From the NCBI GenBank assembly GCA_032718475.1, contig JAUCBJ010005534.1, positions 1 through 34,698 on the forward strand: DNA of 34,698 bases, written 5' to 3'. Origin of the DNA: Nemertoderma westbladi (lineage: Eukaryota; Animalia; Xenacoelomorpha). This document shows positions 1-29,008 of the stretch, piece after piece (the stretch's first letter is position 1; every line of letters begins with the position of its first letter). The position numbers were made by a program, and so were the translations under genes. The notes beneath the pieces were generated by a model, which did no database searches, had not been told where the DNA came from, and worked only from the letters and a program-made list of their open reading frames with translations.

Positions 1-387
1 TACGCTTTATACTTTAATCATAAGCAGTATCGTTGCGTTTAGTATAAGTCTTAGTTCTGTTTAAATAGATAAAGCGCCACGTCCTAAAGGAACTGTTAAT
101 ATTTCCCGAAAGCCAATAATATCTGTCAGAGATTAATTATTAACGATCTATCGAATAATACATTAGGTATACACTGCAACCTTACACTGTAATAATACAA
201 TTCAAGCATCCGAATTCAGTCTCCCGGGTGTAGATCCATCGGGTGAATGATCGCGCATGGGCTGACTTCGGCTAGTGTTTTGCGTATTAGCATAAATTAT
301 TGTCGTATGCTAAAGTGGTTTTAATTAACTAAAAGACATATAAATTTTGGCAGGTTAAACTGCTAAAGGTCTTCAAAAGCGCGAACA
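1..387 (+). mobile_element. 3' part of an LTR (copy 1), truncated by the window edge
   Basis: Colinear with 2695..3053 and the reverse complement of 5208..5570. Shares AAAGCGCCACGTCCTAAAGGAACTGTTAATATT and ends AAAGCGCGAACA. Confidence 0.85.
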
Positions 388-1688
388 GTCAGTTCAAAGA
401 TCGCGCGCTGACCAAGCTCAGTCTTAGAGACTCAGCTGCGGAGAAACTGAGTAGCGCTGGATTTGCCGTGTTTCAAGACGTTTGTATACAGAACTCACAT
501 TCATCTGTTATACAAAGACCCCGAATACCTACAGGTTATTCTGTCGTGGAAATACAGACAGTGGGTCCACTTACGGAAACCGACGCACCAACTTCGTCTA
601 TGCAGCTGGAGGATGAACCAGTATGCTTGGAATCCGAAGCGATTCAACCTACGGCTTCTCGGAGCAGTGACAATGATTATGTCATAGAGTGGTATCAAGG
701 TCCACAGCGTCTCACAGCGTACGATTATCGACACGCCAACTACGTTTCCCGAAAACGTTGTCGATTATGCGCATCGAGAGACCACTTCACTCCTCTCGAC
801 TCGAGCGTACCTTGTTCCTATTTCCTCGAACAACCGATGATGGAAATATATTGTGCTTATTGCCGGCTTAATAACTCTCATATATTTGCCGTCTGCCCAC
901 AGTTTATGACTCAATGTCACTACTGCCAACTTAAAGGACACGAAAGTTACAATTGTCCCTTTAATCGCGATTTAGAGAGCGTAGACGAGATGATCACCCT
1001 GCGATACATCCGAGCTTGGGAAGCGAACGCAGATTTACATTGCGAATCCAGACATCGCTATTGCCCTGGACGAGCTTACGAGGGAGTTTACGCGTTCCAT
1101 CCTTATCTATTCGCGTCGATTGAACAGAAAACACGCGTACCAAGTTACGAGTTAATGAAGCGTGTTGGTGAGTGTATTTCCACCAAGTTTGTCAGGAAAT
1201 ACCTGAGAAACGTTAATCCTAATGATATAACCACATATCACCTGATCAATTATATCCGTCAGGACCCTGAGTATGGCGACATTTTCGTGAACTCGCATCC
1301 TGAACTCCAGGAAGTATCTCGGCGCCCATATGAATACCGAACCCGAGAACGCGAGCTGGAGAGAACCATTAAACCGAGAAAGTTCCTCACCACTCACGGT
1401 CCACCCACCGCTAGTGTCCAGACGACCCGTCAAGGACCCGTAGGAGCTGCTGTCCTGAGACGCGCTCTAAAGGCCGTTAGACCTCACTCCACTGAGGTTG
1501 ATATTAATCAACCAGGTACCTCGACCGGCGGGTATACCGATCGTAACCCTGCACCTTCTGATGCAATTATATTGCACCCTTCGCCTAGGAGCTACAGCCC
1601 ACCTCGTAAAGTGGCTCGCCCCAAAGAGAAAAGGACTCTTGCTAGCCTCCAGAAACTGCGTAAACGCCGTCCGCGCAAGAAAGACTAA
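388..1688 (+). CDS. LTR-retrotransposon ORF with three CCHC zinc knuckles and a basic C-terminal tail (start uncertain: GTG 468, first ATG 600, frame open back to the LTR junction)
   Basis: 406-aa uninterrupted ORF with CRLCASRDH-x9-C, CAYCRLNNSHIFAVC and CHYCQLKGHESYNC. Ends RKVARPKEKRTLASLQKLRKRRPRKKD and stops ~70 bp before a PPT and LTR. Confidence 0.7.
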
Positions 1689-1758
1689 CTGTTTAGAGTA
1701 TTTTTATATTTTAGAAACTGTGATTTTGTATATTTTATAGACTTAAATCCCATTTTCT

Positions 1759-1766
1759 GGGAGCGG
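1759..1766 (+). other. Polypurine tract (plus-strand primer) of the LTR element
   Basis: GGGAGCGG directly abuts the TGT start of the LTR at 1767. Confidence 0.55.
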
Positions 1767-3053
1767 TGTAAAAGCTTTTGTGGGATAACTGATTCGTTTG
1801 CCTTGTTGGCCAGTTCCCCCCCAGTCGCTAAGAATACTCTCAAAGTGATCTACAGCTAAAAATAGTGCAAGTTACCAGCTTATTGGCTGATTTGCTGTAC
1901 GCAGGCATCTGGGCTCTGTTTAATCGGCCAACAAGCCTAGGGAGGTTGCGTCATAGCCTTGTTTTGTATCTCCCAATAGAATTTGAGTTATCCTTGATGT
2001 TGACCTATCACAGAGTACTGAACTGAAAATTTCCTATCTCACTGCTCTTTCTCTGTGTTGAACGGGAGCTTCGTGGAATAAGGGAGTTGGTATCCTCGTA
2101 TAGAGCAGTAGTCACGAGTTTTTCAAAGCCACGAAAGAACGGCTTTGTAGTGTTTTATGCTTTCTGCTTTTTAGCTCAACACTAGGAGGTTTAATTATAA
2201 GGACATATATCCTTTAACTGACTGATGATCAAACAAAACTGACCTGGCTGCAATTACGCATTTAACTCGCATTTGACGCACCTGACTGATGATCAAACAA
2301 AACTGACCTGGCGGCTGACCAAACGCACCTGATGACTGATTGATTGTCTTAACTCAAAACAACTGGCCCGATTGATCTGTCAATACTGTACTGCTATTTG
2401 TTATCGGTTATTCATTATATTTGTTGATGAATTATTATATTGGAATAACGAGAAATAACCCCAACACCCAATATTCTTGATATACCGAAGGTAAGAGAGA
2501 AAGGTTACCAATAACGATTGTGACTTATGTTAAAGTGGTTTGGAGTGAATCTAATGTTATTTGATAGACCCTACATGAGTCAGTCCGTGTTCCTTTTATA
2601 TGTGATTAAAATCAGTGAAGATTGGCAGATTAGTGTGCAGTATTGTGCAGCATTGCGTATGAGCGAGTCTGTTAAAGAAGCAATTCCTAAAGAATGCGCC
2701 ATATATGTTAATTATAATTAAGCCATATCGTTGTGAGTAGTTTAAGTCATAACTCTGTTTATATAGATAAAGCGCCACGTCCTAAAGGAACTGTTAATAT
2801 TCCCGAAGGTGAATAATATTGTCAGAGATAATATAATACTGTCAGTCGAATAATACATTAGGCTTACATAGCAACAAAATTAAACCGTCGAACCCAATCT
2901 CCCGGGAATATCCAGCGGGTGAATGGTCGCGCACGGATTGGTTTCGACTAGTGTAGTGAATCAAATACTTGTCATAGGCTAAAAAGCGATTTAATATCTA
3001 GAAGACATCTTAATTTGGCGGGTTAAACTGCCAAAGGTCTGAAAGCGCGAACA
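1767..3053 (+). mobile_element. Complete 1287-bp 3' LTR (copy 2), possibly BEL/Pao or Gypsy type
   Basis: TGTAAAAGCTTTTG...AAAGCGCGAACA. Both termini are shared with copy 3. Preceded by a PPT, and LINE sequence begins immediately after CA. Confidence 0.85.
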
Positions 3054-4010
3054 TCTTCTTTATAGCGAACATATTTCTTATATCTATAGTCGAGCAAAGA
3101 AAATTTGCTGCCAAATACGACGATCCTTCAAACATAGGAGTGCTAAATTTCAATTCGAGTTGTTTACTGTGTACGCAAGGTCTGTTCTAGAACATAATAG
3201 CCCAATCTGGAGCCCTACTCTCAATGGTGATATTATCAAATTAGAACGAGTCCAGCGTGACTTTACACGCTATTTACCTGGTTTACAAGGTTTGAGCTAC
3301 GCTGCGAGACTGGAGTTGCTGAAGACCCGATCACTTGAAGAACGGCGTATTTACCTCGATTTGGTCGAAATGTTCAAAATATTAAGTGGTCGTAGCCCGT
3401 TTAGCAACCATAATCTGTTTCAGCTCAACAACAATGGTAGAACCAGGGGCCATTCCATGAAACTGTTAACTCCTCATTCAAATAGCCGTCTGCATCAGGT
3501 ACACTTCACTATAAGAAATATTCCGGTGTGGAATTCGCTTCCATCAGCAGTTGTGACAGCACCCTCTTTGTGTTGCTTCCGTTCCCGCCTCAATGATGTC
3601 AGTTTGCTGATTCACTGTAAAGGGTCCTGGAAAGATTCAATGAATACAACCCACTTTGACTGTCTTGGGAATCCGTTATGGTTATCATGATAACGATAAT
3701 CATATTATAATATTATTATGATCTTTAAATATATATTTTAAAACCTATACAGTATGTATAAATAGTATTTTATCTTATTTTATATGTAGAGTCCTTTAAT
3801 AAACCTTTTTACTTACAGTGGTGCCTTGAATGGGCACGGCTGAGTGTTAATATAATATCATGTCTTCTATGTTTTACTTATCTTGATTGTGCATTTTAAT
3901 GATATTTAAATTTTAATCTTGTTTTGCCATTATATAACAATTTCAATTTCAGGCCTATTTCGACAACTTCGGTTGGTCACAGTAAGTATGGGATAATAAT
4001 AACAATAAGA
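3054..4010 (+). mobile_element. 3' end of a CR1-clade LINE (ORF2 C-terminus 3055..3690 plus 3' UTR), interrupted by the LTR element
   Basis: Motifs RSVLEHNSPIWSP, LERVQRDFTR, LSYAARLELL, SLEERR, RTRGHSMKL and VWNSLP are typical of the CR1 post-RT domain. AAT-repeat tail near 3993..4008. Confidence 0.9.
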
Positions 4011-4399
4011 ATCCATAAAAACCTTCTGAAATTTTTTGAAAAACGTGGACAGAGCTGCTATAAATGTGCAAATCAATCTGATTGTCCATTGTCTATGTTT
4101 TCTGTGTCCAGTCCAACTTTTTCAAACACCCGCAGTACGGTACCGGTACTATTTCAGTATTTACTTATCAGGAAGGCCCAGGACAACTGAAGTCAGTTAT
4201 ATTGAAGTCACATTCTGGCGATAAGGCAGCACAAACTAAATTCCTCCGAATAACGGGAAGGGGATAAAATGGAAAATAAATAAATATTATAGTATACCAG
4301 TATGGCATACATTTGTTATTTTTATTCGTTAATATTTTCACTCGCTAAAACATATTTATTGCGCGTGAAAAATACCTTAATTGCGCATGAAAAATCCAT

Positions 4400-4755
4400 T
4401 ATTTACACGTTAAAAATGTATTTATTTACGTGTTAAAAATATATTTATTATGCGTTAAAAATACATTTATTACACGTTAAAAATGTATATATTACGCGTT
4501 AAAAATGTATTTATTACGCATTAAAAACAATTATTGCGCGTTAAAAATAAATTTATTACGCTTTAAAAATGTATTTATTACGTGTTAAAAATACATTTAT
4601 TACGCGTTAAAAACAATTATTACGCGTTAAAAATAAATTTATTACTCGTTAAAAATGTATTTATTACGCGTTAAAAACAATTATTACGCGTTAATAATGT
4701 ATTTATTACGCGTTAAAAACATTTATTACGCGTTAAAAACATTTATTACGCGTAA
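4400..4755. repeat. ~20-22 bp subterminal tandem repeat (TTTATTACGCGTTAAAAAYR) inside the left TIR
   Basis: Directly visible array. A shorter inverted array lies at ~7963..8105. Confidence 0.9.
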
Positions 4756-5079
4756 GGCATTGGTCAATCCCGACTAATTTATGCTCGTTAGCCATTGGTT
4801 AAAATTGGGAGGGAAATCAGTCTTTGTAATCTGGCAAGACAGCGTTCTACACACAACTAACAGTGTAGCAGTACTGCAGTAGGCTACTGGTGTACTGGAA
4901 TCTGAAACAGTTCTGCTGACTGCTAGGCTCTTCTGGTGGGGTACCGTACGTACACCGCGTACTCTGTACAGTAATGTGTTTGTACAGTAATGTAGGTTCT
5001 GAGGTTGGCCTCTCTTACTGGAATATCATGGAATTCTTCATAGAAATCGAACCCATAGTGGAAAAAACTAAAGATTTTC

Positions 5080-6454
5080 CGTGGGTCGGCCTATGTCAGT
5101 ATGTTACGAATTGAAAAATCAACTCTGGTGTTTCTAAGAAATTCAGGTTTTACCTGGAAACAGATTGCTACTGTGTTGGGTGTAAGTCAGTCCACCTGTA
5201 AGTCAAATGTTCGCGCTTTTAGACCTTTAGCAGTTTAACCTGCCAATTTTAGTTGTCCTCTTGTTTATAAATCGACTTTAGCCTATATCGATTATTTAGT
5301 GTACTGAAGTTACATTAGCCGAAGCCAGTCTGTGCGCGATCATTCACCCACAGTTAAGGGAGACTGGATTCGGGTGCTTTGAAAGTTATTGCAATGTAGA
5401 CCTACGGTATTATTCGATTGATCGTTACTATATAATCTCTGACAATATTATTCACTTTCGGGGAAATATTAACAGTTCCTTTAGGACGTGGCGCTTTAAG
5501 TATAAAAACAGAGTTATGACTTATACTAATCACAACGAGATGGCCACAGAGTTTCGTAAATAGCGCATTCTTTAGGAGATGCTTTATTATCTGTCACACG
5601 ACTTCACAGTACTTCACACTACTTCGCACTGATCTGCCGACCGTCACTGAATTTGATCATTAGGGATTATGAAATAGCATTTAATTCACACAAAAACCAC
5701 TATAATGTAAGTCGCAATTGCTACCGGTAACCTGTTCCTCTTACCTTCAGTAATCAAGAAGATTGGGGGTTTTATGATTATTTATCGGTATTCTCCAAAT
5801 ATAACAACATATCCATCAATATAACAACAATTAATAACAGACCGTAAACAGAAGTAAAATAATGCGGTGAACAGTCAGTATGTGTTACATAATGCAGTTA
5901 TGAAATGTGTATCCAAGTAAGGTAGTTGAATTGAATTGAGTATGATCAGGATAATAGATTTACGTTCCAATAATCAAAGCCATCTAATGTTTAGGCCAAA
6001 GTCTGAAACTTCCAAAAACAGAAGTACAGAAGATTCCAAGCCGATTCTGAGGCTCAGAAAGGTAAACAAAGACCGTAATGCATTGCGCGGGTTTCCATAG
6101 GCCCCTGTCCAACATAAAGTGAAAATCGCTCTGATTGGCTGAATAGGCAGAACATAGAGGTTCCACGTCTACAGGAAATCAGCTGACAGATTTCGTCATC
6201 TGAGCTCCAATCTTTTAGAGTATTATGCGCATTGCGGCAAAAATGACTTGTTATGTCCACAAAAGCACCTACACTGCGCATTGCGGGAAAAATGACATGT
6301 TATGTCCGCAAAAGCTTTTACAATAATGGTCCGTGTAAGACACTTTGAGTTACAGGGTCCGATGTCTGATGTTTCCGAGGATGACCTTAAACTACTAATA
6401 TCGCAGCTCCACTCTGAGTTCCCAAATGCGGGGTGTCGCATGATTAACGCTTTA
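5080..6454 (+). pseudogene. N-terminal HTH fragment of an IS3EU-type transposase, split by the solo LTR
   Basis: GRP...FLRNSGFTWKQIATVLGVSQST before 5208 continues as IMVRVRHFELQGPMSDVSEDDLKLLISQLHSEFPNAGCRMINAL after 6322. Confidence 0.75.
5208..6322 (-). mobile_element. Solo LTR (copy 3), 1115 bp
   Basis: Reverse complement begins TGTAAAAGCTTTTG and ends AAAAGCGCGAACA. Its 3' ~620 bp aligns with copy 2. No clean TSD. Confidence 0.85.
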
Positions 6455-7259
6455 GTAGCCCTGAAATATGTCGTTGCAAAAGTCTCTCACCGCCACTGAA
6501 GAAATACTAACTTATTTGCTTTATTTACTTATAAAACTAATTGCAAATATAAAACATCTAGTTAATAATGAAATTAACAAAACACAAAGTGACAATCATA
6601 ATTTTAGTTCAAAATTTAAAATATGTTTTATTAAAAAATTTCCGAAATTGCGTTCAATATAAATCAGTTATTTAATAATAACACAATTAATAATATTTAC
6701 TAATATTTACTATTAAAAGTAAATTTTGTATAATAAATTATTAAAATAGGAAATTTTCGGAAAAATGTCCAGGAAATTTCTGGAAATTTATTCGGGAAAT
6801 TTCCTTTCATTTCCTGACTCACATCCCTAGTAAGGCCATTTCTGGTAGGTACGGGGCACTACTAAAAAAATTAACAAATTTAATATTTAAACAAGGCAAT
6901 ATGAAAAACAATTTAACAGTTAAGTCTCTTAAGTCCAGTATATTGCATTCAGCATCGTCCAAAGCTAAGTCCAGACTCATAGTACGATTTAACGAACTGT
7001 GCAGTCATTTCTTCTTCCGAATTAATGTGCATACAGTAGGAAGAATTACTTGAAATGCACAAGTTGAGTAGGTGAGTCGACACTTACAGTTTTCAGAACA
7101 CTCCTTAATAATAACACTCAGTTTAACGTTAATAGTTGGCCTCTGAGATCCAAACATCCACATTAATATATCCTTCTTATTAAGAACAAAGACTTTGTGT
7201 TCTACAGTATATGTCTGGTATCTAATAACAAGAATACGTTACCCACCCAGTAAATGATA

Positions 7260-7779: not shown

Positions 7780-8970
7780 AATTCTGTAATGCAGTCAGCA
7801 GAATTGTTTCAGATTCCAGTACACCAGTAGCCTACTGCAGTTAGTACTGCTACACTGTTAGTTGTGTGTAGAACGCTGTCTTGCCAGATTACAAAGACTG
7901 ATTTCCCTCCCAATTTTGACCAATGGCTAACGAGCATAAATTAGTGGGGATTGACCAATGCCTTACGCGTAATAAATGTTTTTAACGCGTAATAAATACA
8001 TTTTTAACGCGTAATAATTGTTTTTAATGCGTAATAAATTTATTTTTAACGCGTAATAATTGTTTTTAATGCGTAAATAAATACATTTTTAACGTGTAAA
8101 TAATGGATTTTTCATGCGCAATTAAGGTATTTTTCACGCGCAATAAATATGTTTTAGCGAGTGAAAATATTAACGAATAAAAATAACAAATGTATGCCAT
8201 ATACCAGGACCAGGCTGCCAGGACGGGTGCTTAGATCGTGGCTTTTCCAGTTAACATTATTCCATTTTGTATAAAACAAGTGATGTGGTTGGAGAAACCT
8301 GCTAGGGGCTGCTACTAAGCAGCAACCAATCACGTTAATCCTGTTTAACACAGAGTCAATGAGAATGGAATATTGCTAACATGAAAAAGTTCAGGTTGAC
8401 ATTATTCCAAAGTAATCAGGTATTACAGCAATTACGCTGCTACCTGCTAGTGTTAGTCAGTTACAGTAGTAATCGAGTAAGCCATATAATATTATATGGT
8501 CTGATGGTACAATACCAGGCATAATACTGTATATGCACAGATGCAAGAAACAAAACGTATGTACTGTAGTTTAAGTGGATTAGTTTAATTACAATGATGT
8601 AAACTGTAAATGAAATATTTATAGTTAAGTCCGGTTTAGTAATAAACATACTGTACTTACTTATACAATATCTCATTGAAGTACTTGCCACGTAGTAATA
8701 TTCAATGTGGGCAAAATGCAAGGTCTCACATATCAGTTCATCACCCCGAAACTCGTGTTGCGTTTTATTCACACAACTTTTATGATTACCAACCACTTCC
8801 TGCAAACGGGGTGTAAATGATACGCCGTAACGACCCTGCAAACATTTTACGTTAATTACGCTAATCTAACGTTAGACTTTAGTCTGTTTTAGGTTAGAAA
8901 AATAAAGTTATAAAAATAACTTAGAACAAACGTTTTCTAACGTCTTATAATCGTTTAAAAACTACATATC

Positions 8971-9469: not shown

Positions 9470-10322
9470 AAGTTGTACCTTGTGGTCTTACTTTTGTACC
9501 TGGGGGGGAGGGGGTGTGGTCTTACTTTTTTCCCTGGGGGGGGGGGGGGGGGTCTTACTTTTGTACTAGGGGGTCTTACTTTTGTTTCAGGGGAGTCTTA
9601 CTTTTGTGCCAGGGGGGTCTTACTTTTGTACTTGGCGGGGTCTTACTTTTTGTACCTGGAGGGGTCATACTTGGACTTACTTTTGTATCTGGGGGTCTTA
9701 CACTACTTTTGTACCTAAGGGGGGGAGGTCTTACTTTTGTACCTGGACGTCTTACTTTTGTTCCAGGGGAGTCTTACCTTTGTACCTGGGCCACGTGGGT
9801 CTTACGTTTGTACCTGGTGGCCTTACGTTTGTACCAGGGGGTCTTAGTTTTGTACCAGGGGGTCTTACTTTTGTACCTTGGGGGGGGTCTTACGTTTGTA
9901 CCTGGGGGCCTTACGTTTGTACCAGGGGGTCTTACTTTTGTACCAGGGGGATTTACTTTTGTACCTTGGGGGGGGGGGGGGGGTTTTACGTTTGTACCTG
10001 GGGGGTCTTACTTTTGTACCTGGGGTGGGTCTTACTTTTGTACCAGGGGGATTTACTTTTGTACCAGGGCGGGGAAGGGGGGGTCTTACTTTTGTAGGGT
10101 CTTTGGTCTTAAGGTGTTGGGTCTTGGGTCTTAGGTCTTTATTTTGTACTCCCATAATATAACTACTGTAACTGCAGGTCTGGGGGTCTTACTTTTGTAG
10201 GGTCTTTGGTCTTAAGGTGTTGGGTCTTGGGTCTTAGATCTTTATTTTGTACTCCCATAATATAACTACTGTAACTGCAGGTCTTTATTTTGTACTCCCA
10301 TAATATAACTACTGTAACTGCA
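9470..10322. repeat. G-rich minisatellite (Gn-TCTTACTTTTGTACCW, ~21-23 bp) followed by ~100-bp and ~42-bp duplications
   Basis: Directly visible. It explains the overlapping low-complexity ORFs in the track. Confidence 0.95.
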
Positions 10323-24284: not shown

Positions 24285-24486
24285 AAGTTCTGAAGTTGTA
24301 TTTTAAGAAAAAGTTGAATTTTAAACCCTCCTAGTCCTTGGTCCTAGGCCTAGCCTACAATAATTATAATCTTTATCATACCTAGTCCCATAAGCTAAGC
24401 AGATAAGTTAAATTTTAAAAAATTTTAATTTTAAAAAATAAAGTTGAAATTTCAACTCAGTCGAAAATATAACTTCTACCCGACTG
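24285..24486. mobile_element. Orphan right end of the CAGTCGG TIR family
   Basis: Matches 20290..20416 and ends AACTTCTACCCGACTG. Confidence 0.8.
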
Positions 24487-24519
24487 TTCTACAGATCCAC
24501 ACATCTGTATTTACTGCCG

Positions 24520-25400
24520 GACATGTCCCAGTAGCTACTGTTCGTATTCGTAACATTATTTTACCATGGGTTAAAGAAGCGATACATTTGGGAAACATTT
24601 TTGATTTTGAGGGCAAATTCTATAAAGATATTTTAAGTAAAAGAGGTAAATTTATAGGTAAATTGAATTGTATTAGACGTGAATTTAGCTTTGCTCATCC
24701 ACACAGTATCTGTAAAATTCAGCGCATTTTTGCTACAAGTTTCTACGGTAGTAATCTATGGGATATTTGGAGTGATAGTTGTCATAAGCTGATTACTAGT
24801 TGGAATATTAACTTTCGTTTAACCTGGAAATTACCTTACAATACACACAGATTTTTTGTTGAGGGGCTTTCAGATTTTCCGTATCCTATGACGATGTTAT
24901 GCAGCCGCTTTGTTAATTTTGCCACATCAATTTCTAATTGCGCAAAACCTAGTATTCGTTTTCTTGCAAATCTTACATTATACGACTGTAGGTCGATTAG
25001 TGGTACGAATCTTAAGCGGATCGCTAATAAATGTAATGTAGCTATTCATTGTGTGACAGCGAAAATGTGCAATAATATTTCTTGGTTTGTAAATGATTCT
25101 AATTTACCATATATTAACCTTTGTCGTGAATTGGTCAATTGTAAACATGGGGAGGACGATTTATTCGTACCAGGTTTCTCCACAGAGGAACTTAATAATA
25201 TTTTAAATTATATATGTGCTTCGTAACCTTTAGAAATAATCCCGAAATTATAATTTAAATAGGATTTTTCAATTTTTCATATGTGATACGACGATTGTAA
25301 ATGTATATCGATTTGATCTAATTTGTAATTATTGTAAACACTTTGTAACTATTTACTAGTTGAACTAGGCGATCGTTAAATTGATATTTAGTTGTACTAC
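24520..25400 (+). mobile_element. 5'-truncated non-LTR retrotransposon: ORF2 C-terminus (stop 25226) plus 3' UTR, clade uncertain
   Basis: LPWVKEAIHLGN, KRGKFIGKLN, TSFYGSNLWD and WKLPYNTH are post-RT motifs of invertebrate LINEs. Confidence 0.8.
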
Positions 25401-25618: not shown

Positions 25619-28159
<2,541 letters not shown>

Positions 28160-29008
28160 GTCGAGCAATACTACCAACGGGCGCTGGTAATATACTGCAA
28201 GACACTGGGTTCCGACGACCCAAACGTAGCAAAGACCAAGAACAACCTGGCGTCGGCGTACATGAAGCAGGGCAAGTTGGCCGAGGCGGAGGACTTGTAC
28301 CGGGAGGTTCTGCACCGCAGTATCGACGCGCAGACCCGACACGAGGCCGGGGAGGAGGAGGGCAGACAGGGGAGCGTGTCGAGTCCCTACGAGGAGTACG
28401 GGATGTGGCACAAAGCCGCCAAGGTGGACAGCCCCACGGTCACATCGACGCTGCGCAATCTCAGCGCCCTCTATCGGCGGCAAGGGAGAACGGCGGCGGC
28501 GGGGTCGTTGGAAGCCATCGCGAACGGGACGCACAGCTGGGACGCGGGTCGGTTGGGACGGATTAAGGACGTGTTGGACAGGTCGGAGTCGACCACGCCG
28601 GTGCGGAACGGGGGGCCGCCGCCGCGGGTGGTGGTCTACCACGGGGGGGAGGAGGAGGACTGCAGCATCGGGGGGACGGCGGACTGGCGCTCGGTAGGGG
28701 ACGGGGCCCTCCAGCGGAGCGGTTCCTTCTCGCGGATCCGCCAGTCCATCCGCCGCTCGATAAAGTTCGTGAAGGCGATCCGAGGCGGGGCTCCCGTGCT
28801 GGAGAGCTCCGGGGAGGGGCCAGCCGCCGCCCCCGTCCCCTCCAACTTTATGAAGCGGGCCAGTTCGCTGTCCTCCGTCCTCTCCCCCGGAGTGGCGGCG
28901 CACGGTGGCGGCGCGCCACACAGACGGATGTCTGCCGGTCTCGCCGTAAACACCATCGGCCATTCCATCAGCAGTAACGATATCGGAAGGAGTCAAACTG
29001 CGAACTAA
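28160..29008 (+). CDS. Klc: Kinesin light chain, coding exon 2 (TPR4-6 and C-terminal tail)
   Basis: VEQYYQRAL..DDPNVAKTKNNLASAYMKQGK, YEEYGMWHKAAKVDSPTV, LQRSGSFSRIRQSIRRS, MKRASSLS. Stop TAA at 29006..29008. Confidence 0.97.
   Translation, partial: VEQYYQRALVIYCKTLGSDDPNVAKTKNNLASAYMKQGKLAEAEDLYREVLHRSIDAQTRHEAGEEEGRQGSVSSPYEEYGMWHKAAKVDSPTVTSTLRNLSALYRRQGRTAAAGSLEAIANGTHSWDAGRLGRIKDVLDRSESTTPVRNGGPPPRVVVYHGGEEEDCSIGGTADWRSVGDGALQRSGSFSRIRQSIRRSIKFVKAIRGGAPVLESSGEGPAAAPVPSNFMKRASSLSSVLSPGVAAHGGGAPHRRMSAGLAVNTIGHSISSNDIGRSQTAN

What the first reader, a model, noticed from the sequence alone, without database searches (positions are those of the whole stretch)
60..387. Conserved structured RNA in the LTR with compensatory base changes across three divergent copies
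Seen: the three LTR copies differ widely in sequence yet keep the same helices. Main stem: TCAGTCT/GGGCTGA (216..222/259..265), CCAATCT/GGATTGG (2894..2900/2935..2941) and CCAGTCT/AGACTGG (copy 3, minus strand, 5325..5367). These show two full pair swaps (T-A/C-G, G-C/A-T) and two GU/AU switches. The outer stem CCGAA/TTCGG becomes TCGAA/TTCGA. Inside is a CCC..GGG hairpin with a variable loop, then near-invariant TGAATGRTCGCGCA, whose TCGCGC is complementary to GCGCGA at the LTR end (possible pseudoknot). A second hairpin TTGGCRG-GTTAAA-CTGCYAA keeps an invariant loop. CCTA/TAGG closes another multi-helix domain after the invariant AAAGCGCCACGTCCTAAAGGAACTG. GU-tolerant changes point to RNA on the + sense. 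Inference: a several-hundred-nt cis-acting RNA (export or packaging element, IRES, or ribozyme) that I cannot assign to a known family.
Basis: partly seen in the sequence, partly recalled or inferred. Interest (0 to 1): 0.8.

Follow-up and report, generated by a model that had tools for sequence, protein, structure and literature searches.

The report
Folded RNA in retroelement terminal repeat
Three divergent copies of a 650-base repeat that bounds an abundant animal mobile element keep one 12-pair stem through matched base swaps, so the element's RNA likely folds there, probably as a signal for its own packaging and copying, and the element lacks the usual priming signals.

Summary
Partly confirmed. 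The main stem (210-222/259-271) is real: 12 pairs kept in all three copies, with 3 full swaps and 2 G-U switches; 0 of 400 column shuffles of the whole alignment gave such a helix. The second hairpin (347-366) has moderate support (5 of 300 shuffles). The pseudoknot and the CCTA/TAGG helix are invariant, so untested, and as common as chance. The repeat is about 650 bases (TGTT...AACA), highly repeated in four public runs, and flanks a zinc-knuckle ORF without a polymerase. It has no tRNA primer site, no polypurine tract and no Tf1-type self-primer, so "LTR" is likely but not shown. No Rfam family, ribozyme core or outside relative was found. Best reading: an R/U5-type RNA signal of a non-autonomous retroelement, a known kind of thing with an uncatalogued fold. 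Evidence is thin: three sequences, no RNA data, weak single-sequence folding. The open question is how this element primes reverse transcription.

The parts
1..387 (+). Copy 1 of the terminal repeat, 3' part only (cut by the window start); ends GCGCGAACA
   Evidence: contigs of run X5 leave the window sequence at 387 (table 7)
71..104 (+). Most conserved block (33 of 35 columns invariant), after an AT-rich TATA-like stretch at 60-73; role unknown, promoter/start region by inference
210..271 (+). Main stem: 210-214/267-271 and 216-222/259-265, 12 pairs, 3 full swaps, 2 G-U switches
223..258 (+). Inside of the stem: CCC/GGG hairpin with variable loop (223-243) and near-invariant TGAATGRTCGCGCA (14 of 16 columns); rival small hairpin 243-246/251-254; pairing not established
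334..372 (+). Second domain: AGAC/GTCT (334-337/369-372) closing hairpin 347-366 with invariant loop GTTAAA
379..384 (+). GCGCGA, complementary to 251-256; possible long-range pair, invariant and not above chance
388..599 (+). Leader after the repeat: no tRNA primer site; opens with a 5-bp hairpin (388-392/408-412) whose loop and 3' arm hold GCGCGC; stop-free in the ORF frame
600..1688 (+). Intact ORF, 362 aa from the first ATG (open from 333): two CCHC-type zinc knuckles, a predicted helical part, basic tail; not shown to be Gag
2051..2295 (+). 3' non-coding block, homologous to 6119-5868 (minus) upstream of copy 3; conserved part ends near 2216, then a variable spacer of short repeats to 2398
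   Evidence: score 115 against 76.8 +/- 8.9; 0 of 200 shuffles; joints
2399..3053 (+). Copy 2, complete repeat, TGTTA...GAACA; main stem 2888-2900/2935-2947
5208..5839 (-). Copy 3, complete repeat, TGTTA...GAACA; main stem 5373-5361/5331-5319; right end of another, truncated element

Best explanation
The 3' half of this terminal repeat is likely a folded cis-acting RNA signal, of the R/U5 kind, that the transcript of a non-autonomous retroelement would use to be packaged and reverse-transcribed by a helper element's enzymes. Shown: a 650-base TGTT...AACA repeat with a sharp end, highly repeated, flanking a polymerase-less zinc-knuckle ORF; one covarying 12-bp stem and one supported hairpin in its last 180 bases; no tRNA primer site or polypurine tract. 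Inferred: transcription starts inside the repeat upstream of the stems; the three copies are types of separately amplified subfamilies, so their differences passed the filter of transposition; the stem displays the invariant TGAATGRTCGCGCA loop to a protein (the zinc-knuckle product or a helper reverse transcriptase) or to a second RNA; the fold beside the repeat end sets up priming without a tRNA. No step of the function was tested.
For: Covariation above chance. Structure sits in the last 180 bases, next to where a primer site would be; retroelement leaders carry such signals (Ty1 pseudoknot, palindromes and CYC5/CYC3 pairing, PMC3592414, passages; stem-loops explain residual conservation in long R regions, PMC3601003, passages). 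Variation concentrates in loops and linkers: 10 of 39 columns invariant at 171-209 and 6 of 20 at 223-242, against 14 of 16 at 243-258 and 31 of 39 at 334-372. Copies are subfamily types, not decayed relics: copy 1 matches deep contigs at 1 difference in 244 (X4) and 1 in 301 (X5), copy 2 at 6 in 247 and 9 in 330, and stem arms of the copy-3 and copy-2 type recur as loose ends in X1-X4 (read by eye). One X4 contig has 5 of 5 listed changes A>G on the plus strand at 232-250, a hint of an edited plus-sense RNA.
Against: Only three sequences. The population test failed: one search did not list differences near the ends of the stretch, where the arms lie. Single-sequence folding is weak and does not favour the stem in copy 2. 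No primer site, polypurine tract or self-primer of >=10 nt. The two repeats around the ORF differ by about 20-25%, unlike one LTR insertion. The ORF has no capsid match (model pLDDT 39), and its zinc knuckles come before the helical part. No helper element was identified. Nothing here separates packaging/priming from other RNA functions.
Confidence: 0.45

Rival explanations
1. The fold is a translation-initiation element: it would load ribosomes and start the zinc-knuckle ORF at a non-AUG codon at or just after the repeat end, with 252-256/379-383 acting like the codon-mimic pseudoknot of dicistrovirus IGR IRESs.
For: The ORF frame is stop-free for 89 codons upstream of the first ATG, back into the second hairpin; chance about 0.007 (0.02 from 388) by base composition. 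Five of the six pairs end on an in-frame codon boundary (381-383; read from the sequence). A joint in X4 shows a relative matching up to 570 and again from 660, so the ATG region is less conserved than the stretch before it.
Against: The pair is invariant and at chance level. Its 5' strand is in an internal loop 120 bases away, not in an anticodon-like hairpin loop; IGR IRESs have three pseudoknots (PMC4132737, passages). With all six pairs the next codon is out of frame. No IRES family hit in Rfam. An open frame can also come from splicing or a lost ATG.
Confidence: 0.17
2. The fold serves RNA 3'-end formation, stability or nuclear export at the downstream repeat rather than packaging or priming.
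For: No AATAAA/ATTAAA is shared by the copies on the plus strand (none in copy 1; different places in copies 2 and 3), so an unusual 3'-end signal is needed. Structured export elements are known in some LTR elements (recalled, no call).
Against: No transcript ends could be seen (contigs only). No match to a known export element in Rfam.
Confidence: 0.13
3. The stems act or arose at DNA level: a hairpin in single-stranded DNA recognised by a recombinase or transposase, or quasi-palindrome correction that copies one arm onto the other without any function; the repeat would then not be an LTR.
For: No primer site, polypurine tract or polymerase; dissimilar repeats around the ORF; the mismatch at 215/266 also co-varies; one X5 contig joins the repeat end to the reverse complement of 2206-2217, which could be an inverted arrangement.
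Against: Arm-to-arm correction makes perfect palindromes, yet G-T pairs and the central mismatch persist; all 5 one-sided changes are G-T on one strand; none of the three swaps is at a CpG (read from the sequences); the A>G cluster hints at RNA.
Confidence: 0.13
4. The fold is a self-cleaving or self-processing ribozyme of an undescribed class that cuts repeat-to-repeat transcripts, as hammerheads do in retrozymes.
For: Invariant single-stranded stretches inside covarying stems, a possible long-range pair, and one copy at each end of the element, as in retrozymes (PMC4918200, search listing and start of abstract only).
Against: No hammerhead core CUGANGA on either strand of any copy; no ribozyme family at E <= 10 in Rfam; the element codes for a protein and is 3 kb.
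Confidence: 0.07

Closest known systems
Ty1 5' RNA domain (pseudoknot, PAL palindromes, CYC5/CYC3), PMC3592414 (12 of 16 passages seen)
   Same: Structured RNA at the 5' end of an LTR element's transcript, with a possible pseudoknot, GC palindromes and a possible pairing between 5' and 3' regions
   Different: Ty1 has a tRNA-Met primer site and Gag-Pol, and its structure runs into GAG; no sequence or fold match was shown
Tf1/sushi, Tcn1 and TAR self-priming LTR elements (PMC6317226, 7 of 7 passages)
   Same: No tRNA primer site after the upstream repeat
   Different: They have >=10 nt in the LTR complementary to the bases right after it; here the best is 6 nt
Fungal GalEa 'Conserved Hairpin Site' (PMC5445492, 9 of 9 passages) and bivalve TRIMs (PMC6934838, 6 of 6 passages)
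   Same: No primer site; a hairpin starts directly after the repeat (5 bp here)
   Different: GalEa has a 9-bp pair with a fixed palindromic sequence, absent here; TRIMs are under 1 kb, with 100-250 bp repeats
Dicistrovirus IGR IRES (PMC4132737, 12 of 41 passages)
   Same: Structured RNA directly upstream of a frame that is open without an ATG
   Different: Three pseudoknots and an anticodon-like loop are not seen; no Rfam match
Plant LTR retrozymes (PMC4918200, listing and start of abstract only)
   Same: Non-autonomous element with a conserved RNA fold in both terminal repeats
   Different: No hammerhead core; carries a protein ORF
DIRS-order tyrosine-recombinase retroelements (PMC6681497, 12 of 15 passages)
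   Same: Would explain missing primer site and purine tract; use internal complementary regions
   Different: No recombinase or RT here; neither the inverted-repeat nor the A1-B1-A2-B2 layout is seen in the window

Membership tests
LTR retrotransposon (non-autonomous) | Direct terminal repeats with TG...CA ends | tested here: met
   Copies 2 and 3 run TGTTA...GAACA; copy 1 ends GAACA; its left end is outside the window
LTR retrotransposon (non-autonomous) | The two LTRs of a young insertion are near-identical | tested here: not met
   Copies 1 and 2 are 74% (blastn) to 81% (aligned columns) alike while copy 1 and the ORF are within about 1% of deep contigs; a chimeric locus would explain it but was not shown
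LTR retrotransposon (non-autonomous) | tRNA primer-binding site right after the 5' LTR | tested here: not met
   No TGG within 20 nt after 387; the host's tRNAs were not available, so half-tRNA priming is untested
LTR retrotransposon (non-autonomous) | Polypurine tract before the 3' LTR | tested here: not met
   5 of 15 and 4 of 15 purines, longest run 2, before copies 2 and 3
LTR retrotransposon (non-autonomous) | Target-site duplication | not testable with these tools
   No complete element lies in the window and no genome is held
LTR retrotransposon (non-autonomous) | Gag with capsid then nucleocapsid | tested here: inconclusive
   Two CCHC-type motifs; no Pfam, PDB or database match for a capsid; atlas hits under 0.9 to zinc-knuckle proteins; model unusable
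Tf1-type self-priming element | >=10 nt in the LTR complementary to a stretch starting 0-5 nt after it | tested here: not met
   Best 6 nt in all three copies; copy 1's own first 270 bases are outside the window, copies 2 and 3 stood in
GalEa Conserved Hairpin Site | 9-bp inverted pair with CTGATCAGT/CTAATTAGT directly after the LTR | tested here: not met
   5-bp hairpin of other sequence at 388-412
Retrozyme | Hammerhead ribozyme in the repeat | tested here: not met
   No CUGANGA in any copy, either strand; no Rfam hit
IGR (type 6) IRES | Three pseudoknots, the last an anticodon-like loop next to the first codon | tested here: not met
   One unproven long-range pair from an internal loop; no Rfam hit
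IGR (type 6) IRES | Factor-free initiation at a non-AUG codon | not testable with these tools
   Only the open frame upstream of ATG 600
DIRS order | Inverted repeats with an internal complementary region, or split direct repeats | tested here: inconclusive
   Window shows direct repeats only; one X5 contig joins the repeat end to the complement of 2206-2217
TRIM | Under 1 kb, repeats of 100-250 bp | tested here: not met
   At least 3 kb, 650-bp repeats; definition from PMC6934838

The most novel reading that the evidence does not exclude
An undescribed class of animal retroelement with no tRNA primer site and no purine tract, whose terminal repeat is a compact RNA machine: it would prime reverse transcription with the element's own RNA, a block near the 3' end of the internal region pairing with the first dozen bases after the repeat with its 3' end exactly at the repeat border, and/or start its zinc-knuckle protein without an AUG.
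Probability: 0.13. Interest if true: 0.8.

Novelty: new variant of a known kind. Interest (0 to 1): 0.4.

Why it matters
Folded RNA in the terminal repeats of retroelements is expected, so the ordinary reading adds one uncatalogued fold in one poorly known animal lineage. It matters more because the element is abundant and young yet shows none of the three priming signals tested (tRNA site, purine tract, Tf1-type self-primer). How primer-site-less elements such as fungal GalEa and bivalve TRIMs start reverse transcription is stated as open in PMC5445492 and PMC6934838. A family with many subfamilies in one genome would let covariation pin down the RNA fold and the suspected 5'-3' pairing directly.

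Tried and rejected
No whole genome is held, so no genome-wide alignment. Rfam at E <= 10 on 1-6200 and on each copy: 4, 1, 2 and 1 matches, all far under gathering score and different for each copy. ARAGORN: 0 genes. Exact motif scans: 0 in viral contigs, 0 in metagenomes, 0 in GTDB genomes; a gapped motif gave 20 metagenome loci, 0 of 20 with blastn similarity to the repeat, all 49-69% GC. ORF: no relatives at near or longer lengths (shorter not searched), none in viral contigs, 2 weak hits among cluster representatives, unnamed; single-sequence model pLDDT 39, so no fold search. Sequencing runs: no RNA holder listed; X5's 'RNA' and X4's 'DNA' are guesses. One search was meant to test covariation among all copies but did not list differences near the ends of the stretch: the G>A at 275, 96% in X1, is missing, and only 5 of 11 differences of X4 record 26 are shown; so the arms are untested, and only the centre shows no variant at 3% in X1, X2, X3. 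Pairing of copy 1's leader (388-399) with 2212-2222 (11 bp, one bulge) is no better than shuffled targets (29, 23 and 46 of 60). A suspected degenerate repeat copy in the 3' internal region: not supported (49-99 of 100 shuffles for four pairs, 12 and 4 of 100 for two). A helix 166-171/306-311 with one swap rivals CCTA/TAGG but is matched by 86 of 300 shuffles. 5' half of the repeat: no signal. Resemblances to group I, HDV-like, pistol, telomerase and tRNA-Phe motifs were considered from memory and dropped: no Rfam support. Earlier-findings look-ups by sequence, words and near place returned nothing. Seven literature searches listed no paper on this element or fold; with the host unnamed and Repbase/Dfam not searchable, this does not show it is unpublished. 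No supplements were read.

Full report
Setting. The window is AT-rich animal DNA full of repeats. Its kinesin light chain is about 60% identical to fish, insect and lancelet proteins alike, so the host is a divergent animal that I could not place. No genome is held. The finding lies in the first of three copies of a repeat: copy 1 (1-387, cut by the window start), copy 2 (2399-3053) and copy 3 (5839-5208, minus strand). Copies 2 and 3 begin TGTTA and all end GAACA; they are 72-76% alike by blastn and 78-82% over aligned columns. Between copies 1 and 2 lie a 212-base leader, an intact ORF (600-1688, open from 333) and 700 non-coding bases. Copy 3 is preceded by a homologue of that non-coding region (0 of 200 shuffles), so it is the right end of a second, truncated element.

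The observation. The letters and coordinates are as stated. Inner and outer stem form 12 pairs kept in all three copies: 7 invariant, 2 with a G-U switch, 3 with changes on both sides (that tool's own control, 18 of 500, is not a probability). To allow for picking the best helix after the fact, I listed every helix of >=6 bp in the three-copy alignment and repeated this on 400 shuffles that keep the conservation profile. This stem was the top hit; 0 of 400 shuffles gave >=12 bp with >=3 swaps, and 2 of 400 gave >=6 bp with >=3 swaps. Consensus folding gives it probability 0.97-0.98, though a shorter alignment folded otherwise. The hairpin at 347-366 has only G-U switches but is matched by 5 of 300 shuffles and folds better than shuffles in each copy, on the plus strand only. 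The proposed pseudoknot and the CCTA/TAGG helix are invariant and at chance level (148 of 300 shuffles; about 81 such 4-bp helices per shuffle), and each has rival pairings.

The family. Six of 11 listed public runs hold the stretch. In four runs laid on 1-6000, summed depth over the repeat in X1 is 6x10^5 to 1.3x10^6 and over the internal region mostly 1-2.5x10^5, against 100-220 in the flank at 3201-3800; the tool warns that this is no copy number, but the family is clearly highly repeated. Copy 1 and the ORF are within about 1% of deep contigs, copy 2 within about 2.5% (table 8, which shows 32 of 31,396 pieces). So the three copies stand for separately amplified subfamilies, and their differences are more likely filtered by selection than post-insertion decay (inference). 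It also means copies 1 and 2 are not the twin LTRs of one insertion; recombination between subfamilies, perhaps in the very abundant shared block at 1600-1800, is the simplest account (inference). The attempt to test covariation in the runs failed because differences near the ends of the stretch were not listed. That call did show no variant at 3% in the centre in X1-X3, and one X4 contig whose 5 listed changes (of 11) are all A>G on the plus strand at 232-250, against an A>G share of 53 of 418 in that run. This is the pattern of A-to-I editing (established knowledge) and hints at a plus-sense RNA stage, but it is one contig in a run of guessed kind.

Is it an LTR element? The TG...CA ends with a TGTT/AACA inverted pair fit integrase attachment sites (compare Table 3 passages of PMC3601003). 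But there is no TGG after copy 1, no purine tract before copies 2 or 3, and no self-primer above 6 nt by the criterion of PMC6317226. The ORF has two CCHC-type knuckles followed by a predicted helical part; it has no convincing Pfam, PDB or database match, and its best relative is an unnamed protein with a similar knuckle-plus-helix module (26% over 171 aa). Between the ORF and copy 2 the longest stop-free frame is 89 codons, too short for a polymerase. So it is a non-autonomous element that looks like an LTR retrotransposon but fails several of its defining tests.

A lead on priming. In run X5, contigs leave the repeat at its exact end (3 contigs at 387, 1 at 3054, table 7, 24 of 1,098 rows shown). 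In the single contig, the first 12 bases after the repeat are the exact reverse complement of window 2206-2217, the place where the conserved internal block ends and other copies join on to the repeat (joints at 2216). My rough chance estimate is about 1 in 1,000 (by hand, from base composition and 2 kb on both strands; no call). The three other contigs continue with a related sequence. Copy 1's own leader can pair with 2212-2222 in the same geometry, the 3' end of the internal strand meeting the first base after the repeat, which is how a primer sits; but that duplex is no stronger than chance. The X5 junction may equally be an inverted arrangement. Ty1 uses a 5'-3' pairing beside its primer site (PMC3592414), so cyclisation is the conservative reading and self-priming the bold one.

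Mechanism. Most likely the last 180 bases of the repeat fold in the transcript into a stem that displays an invariant loop and a second hairpin, and serve packaging and the start of reverse transcription by a helper element (0.45). Rivals are a non-AUG translation element (0.17; the frame is open for 89 codons before the first ATG, chance 0.007-0.02), a 3'-end or export signal (0.13), a DNA-level hairpin (0.13) and a new ribozyme (0.07).

Comparison and novelty. No Rfam family matches and no relative was found outside this organism's runs. It works like the structured leaders of Ty1 and retroviruses and shares the missing primer site with Tf1-type, GalEa and bivalve TRIM elements, but meets the defining tests of none. 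Papers were seen as passages (PMC6934838, PMC6317226, PMC3601003, PMC5445492, PMC3592414, PMC6681497, PMC4132737) or as a listing with the start of the abstract (PMC4918200); none was read whole and no supplement was read. Verdict: a real but narrower structure than claimed, a new variant of a known kind, interest 0.4; the self-priming or non-AUG reading has about 13% and would deserve 0.8.

Noticed in passing
window 4301-4923 and 7791-8201: A foldback element with long, 98-99% complementary arms containing a 20-22-base minisatellite encloses copy 3 and about 2.9 kb of mixed sequence.
   Followed up: no
window 1600-1800: The end of the ORF and the AT-rich stretch after it are 5-10 times deeper in the runs than the rest of the internal region; relatives diverge after 1780, so this block seems shared by many subfamilies.
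   Followed up: partly
window 2218-2398: Spacer of short repeated units before copy 2 is rare in the runs and differs in length among copies (joints from 2216-2220).
   Followed up: partly
window 3043-3690 and 24435-25226: Open frames that look like the C-terminal parts of LINE reverse-transcriptase ORFs (recalled; no Pfam hit); copy 2 ends inside the first.
   Followed up: no
window 6296-6499: Short frame resembling a piece of an integrase-type DNA transposon ORF (recalled), near where the element of copy 3 breaks off.
   Followed up: no
window 25619-26740 and 28160-29008: Kinesin light chain gene in two long GC-rich open frames, about 60% identical to all listed animal homologues.
   Followed up: partly
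window 71-77 / 376-382 and 91-99 / 358-366: Two short motifs of the invariant 5' block recur near the repeat end (AAAGCGC; AACTGYTAA), so the two ends of the structured region could swap partners.
   Followed up: no
window 9473-10115 and 31157 to beyond 32324: A 21-22-base and a 25-base minisatellite array.
   Followed up: no
P0002 (residues about 300-350 and 495-595): Unnamed 633-aa protein with two copies of a zinc-knuckle module that weakly matches the ORF; the module seems to have no family name.
   Followed up: partly
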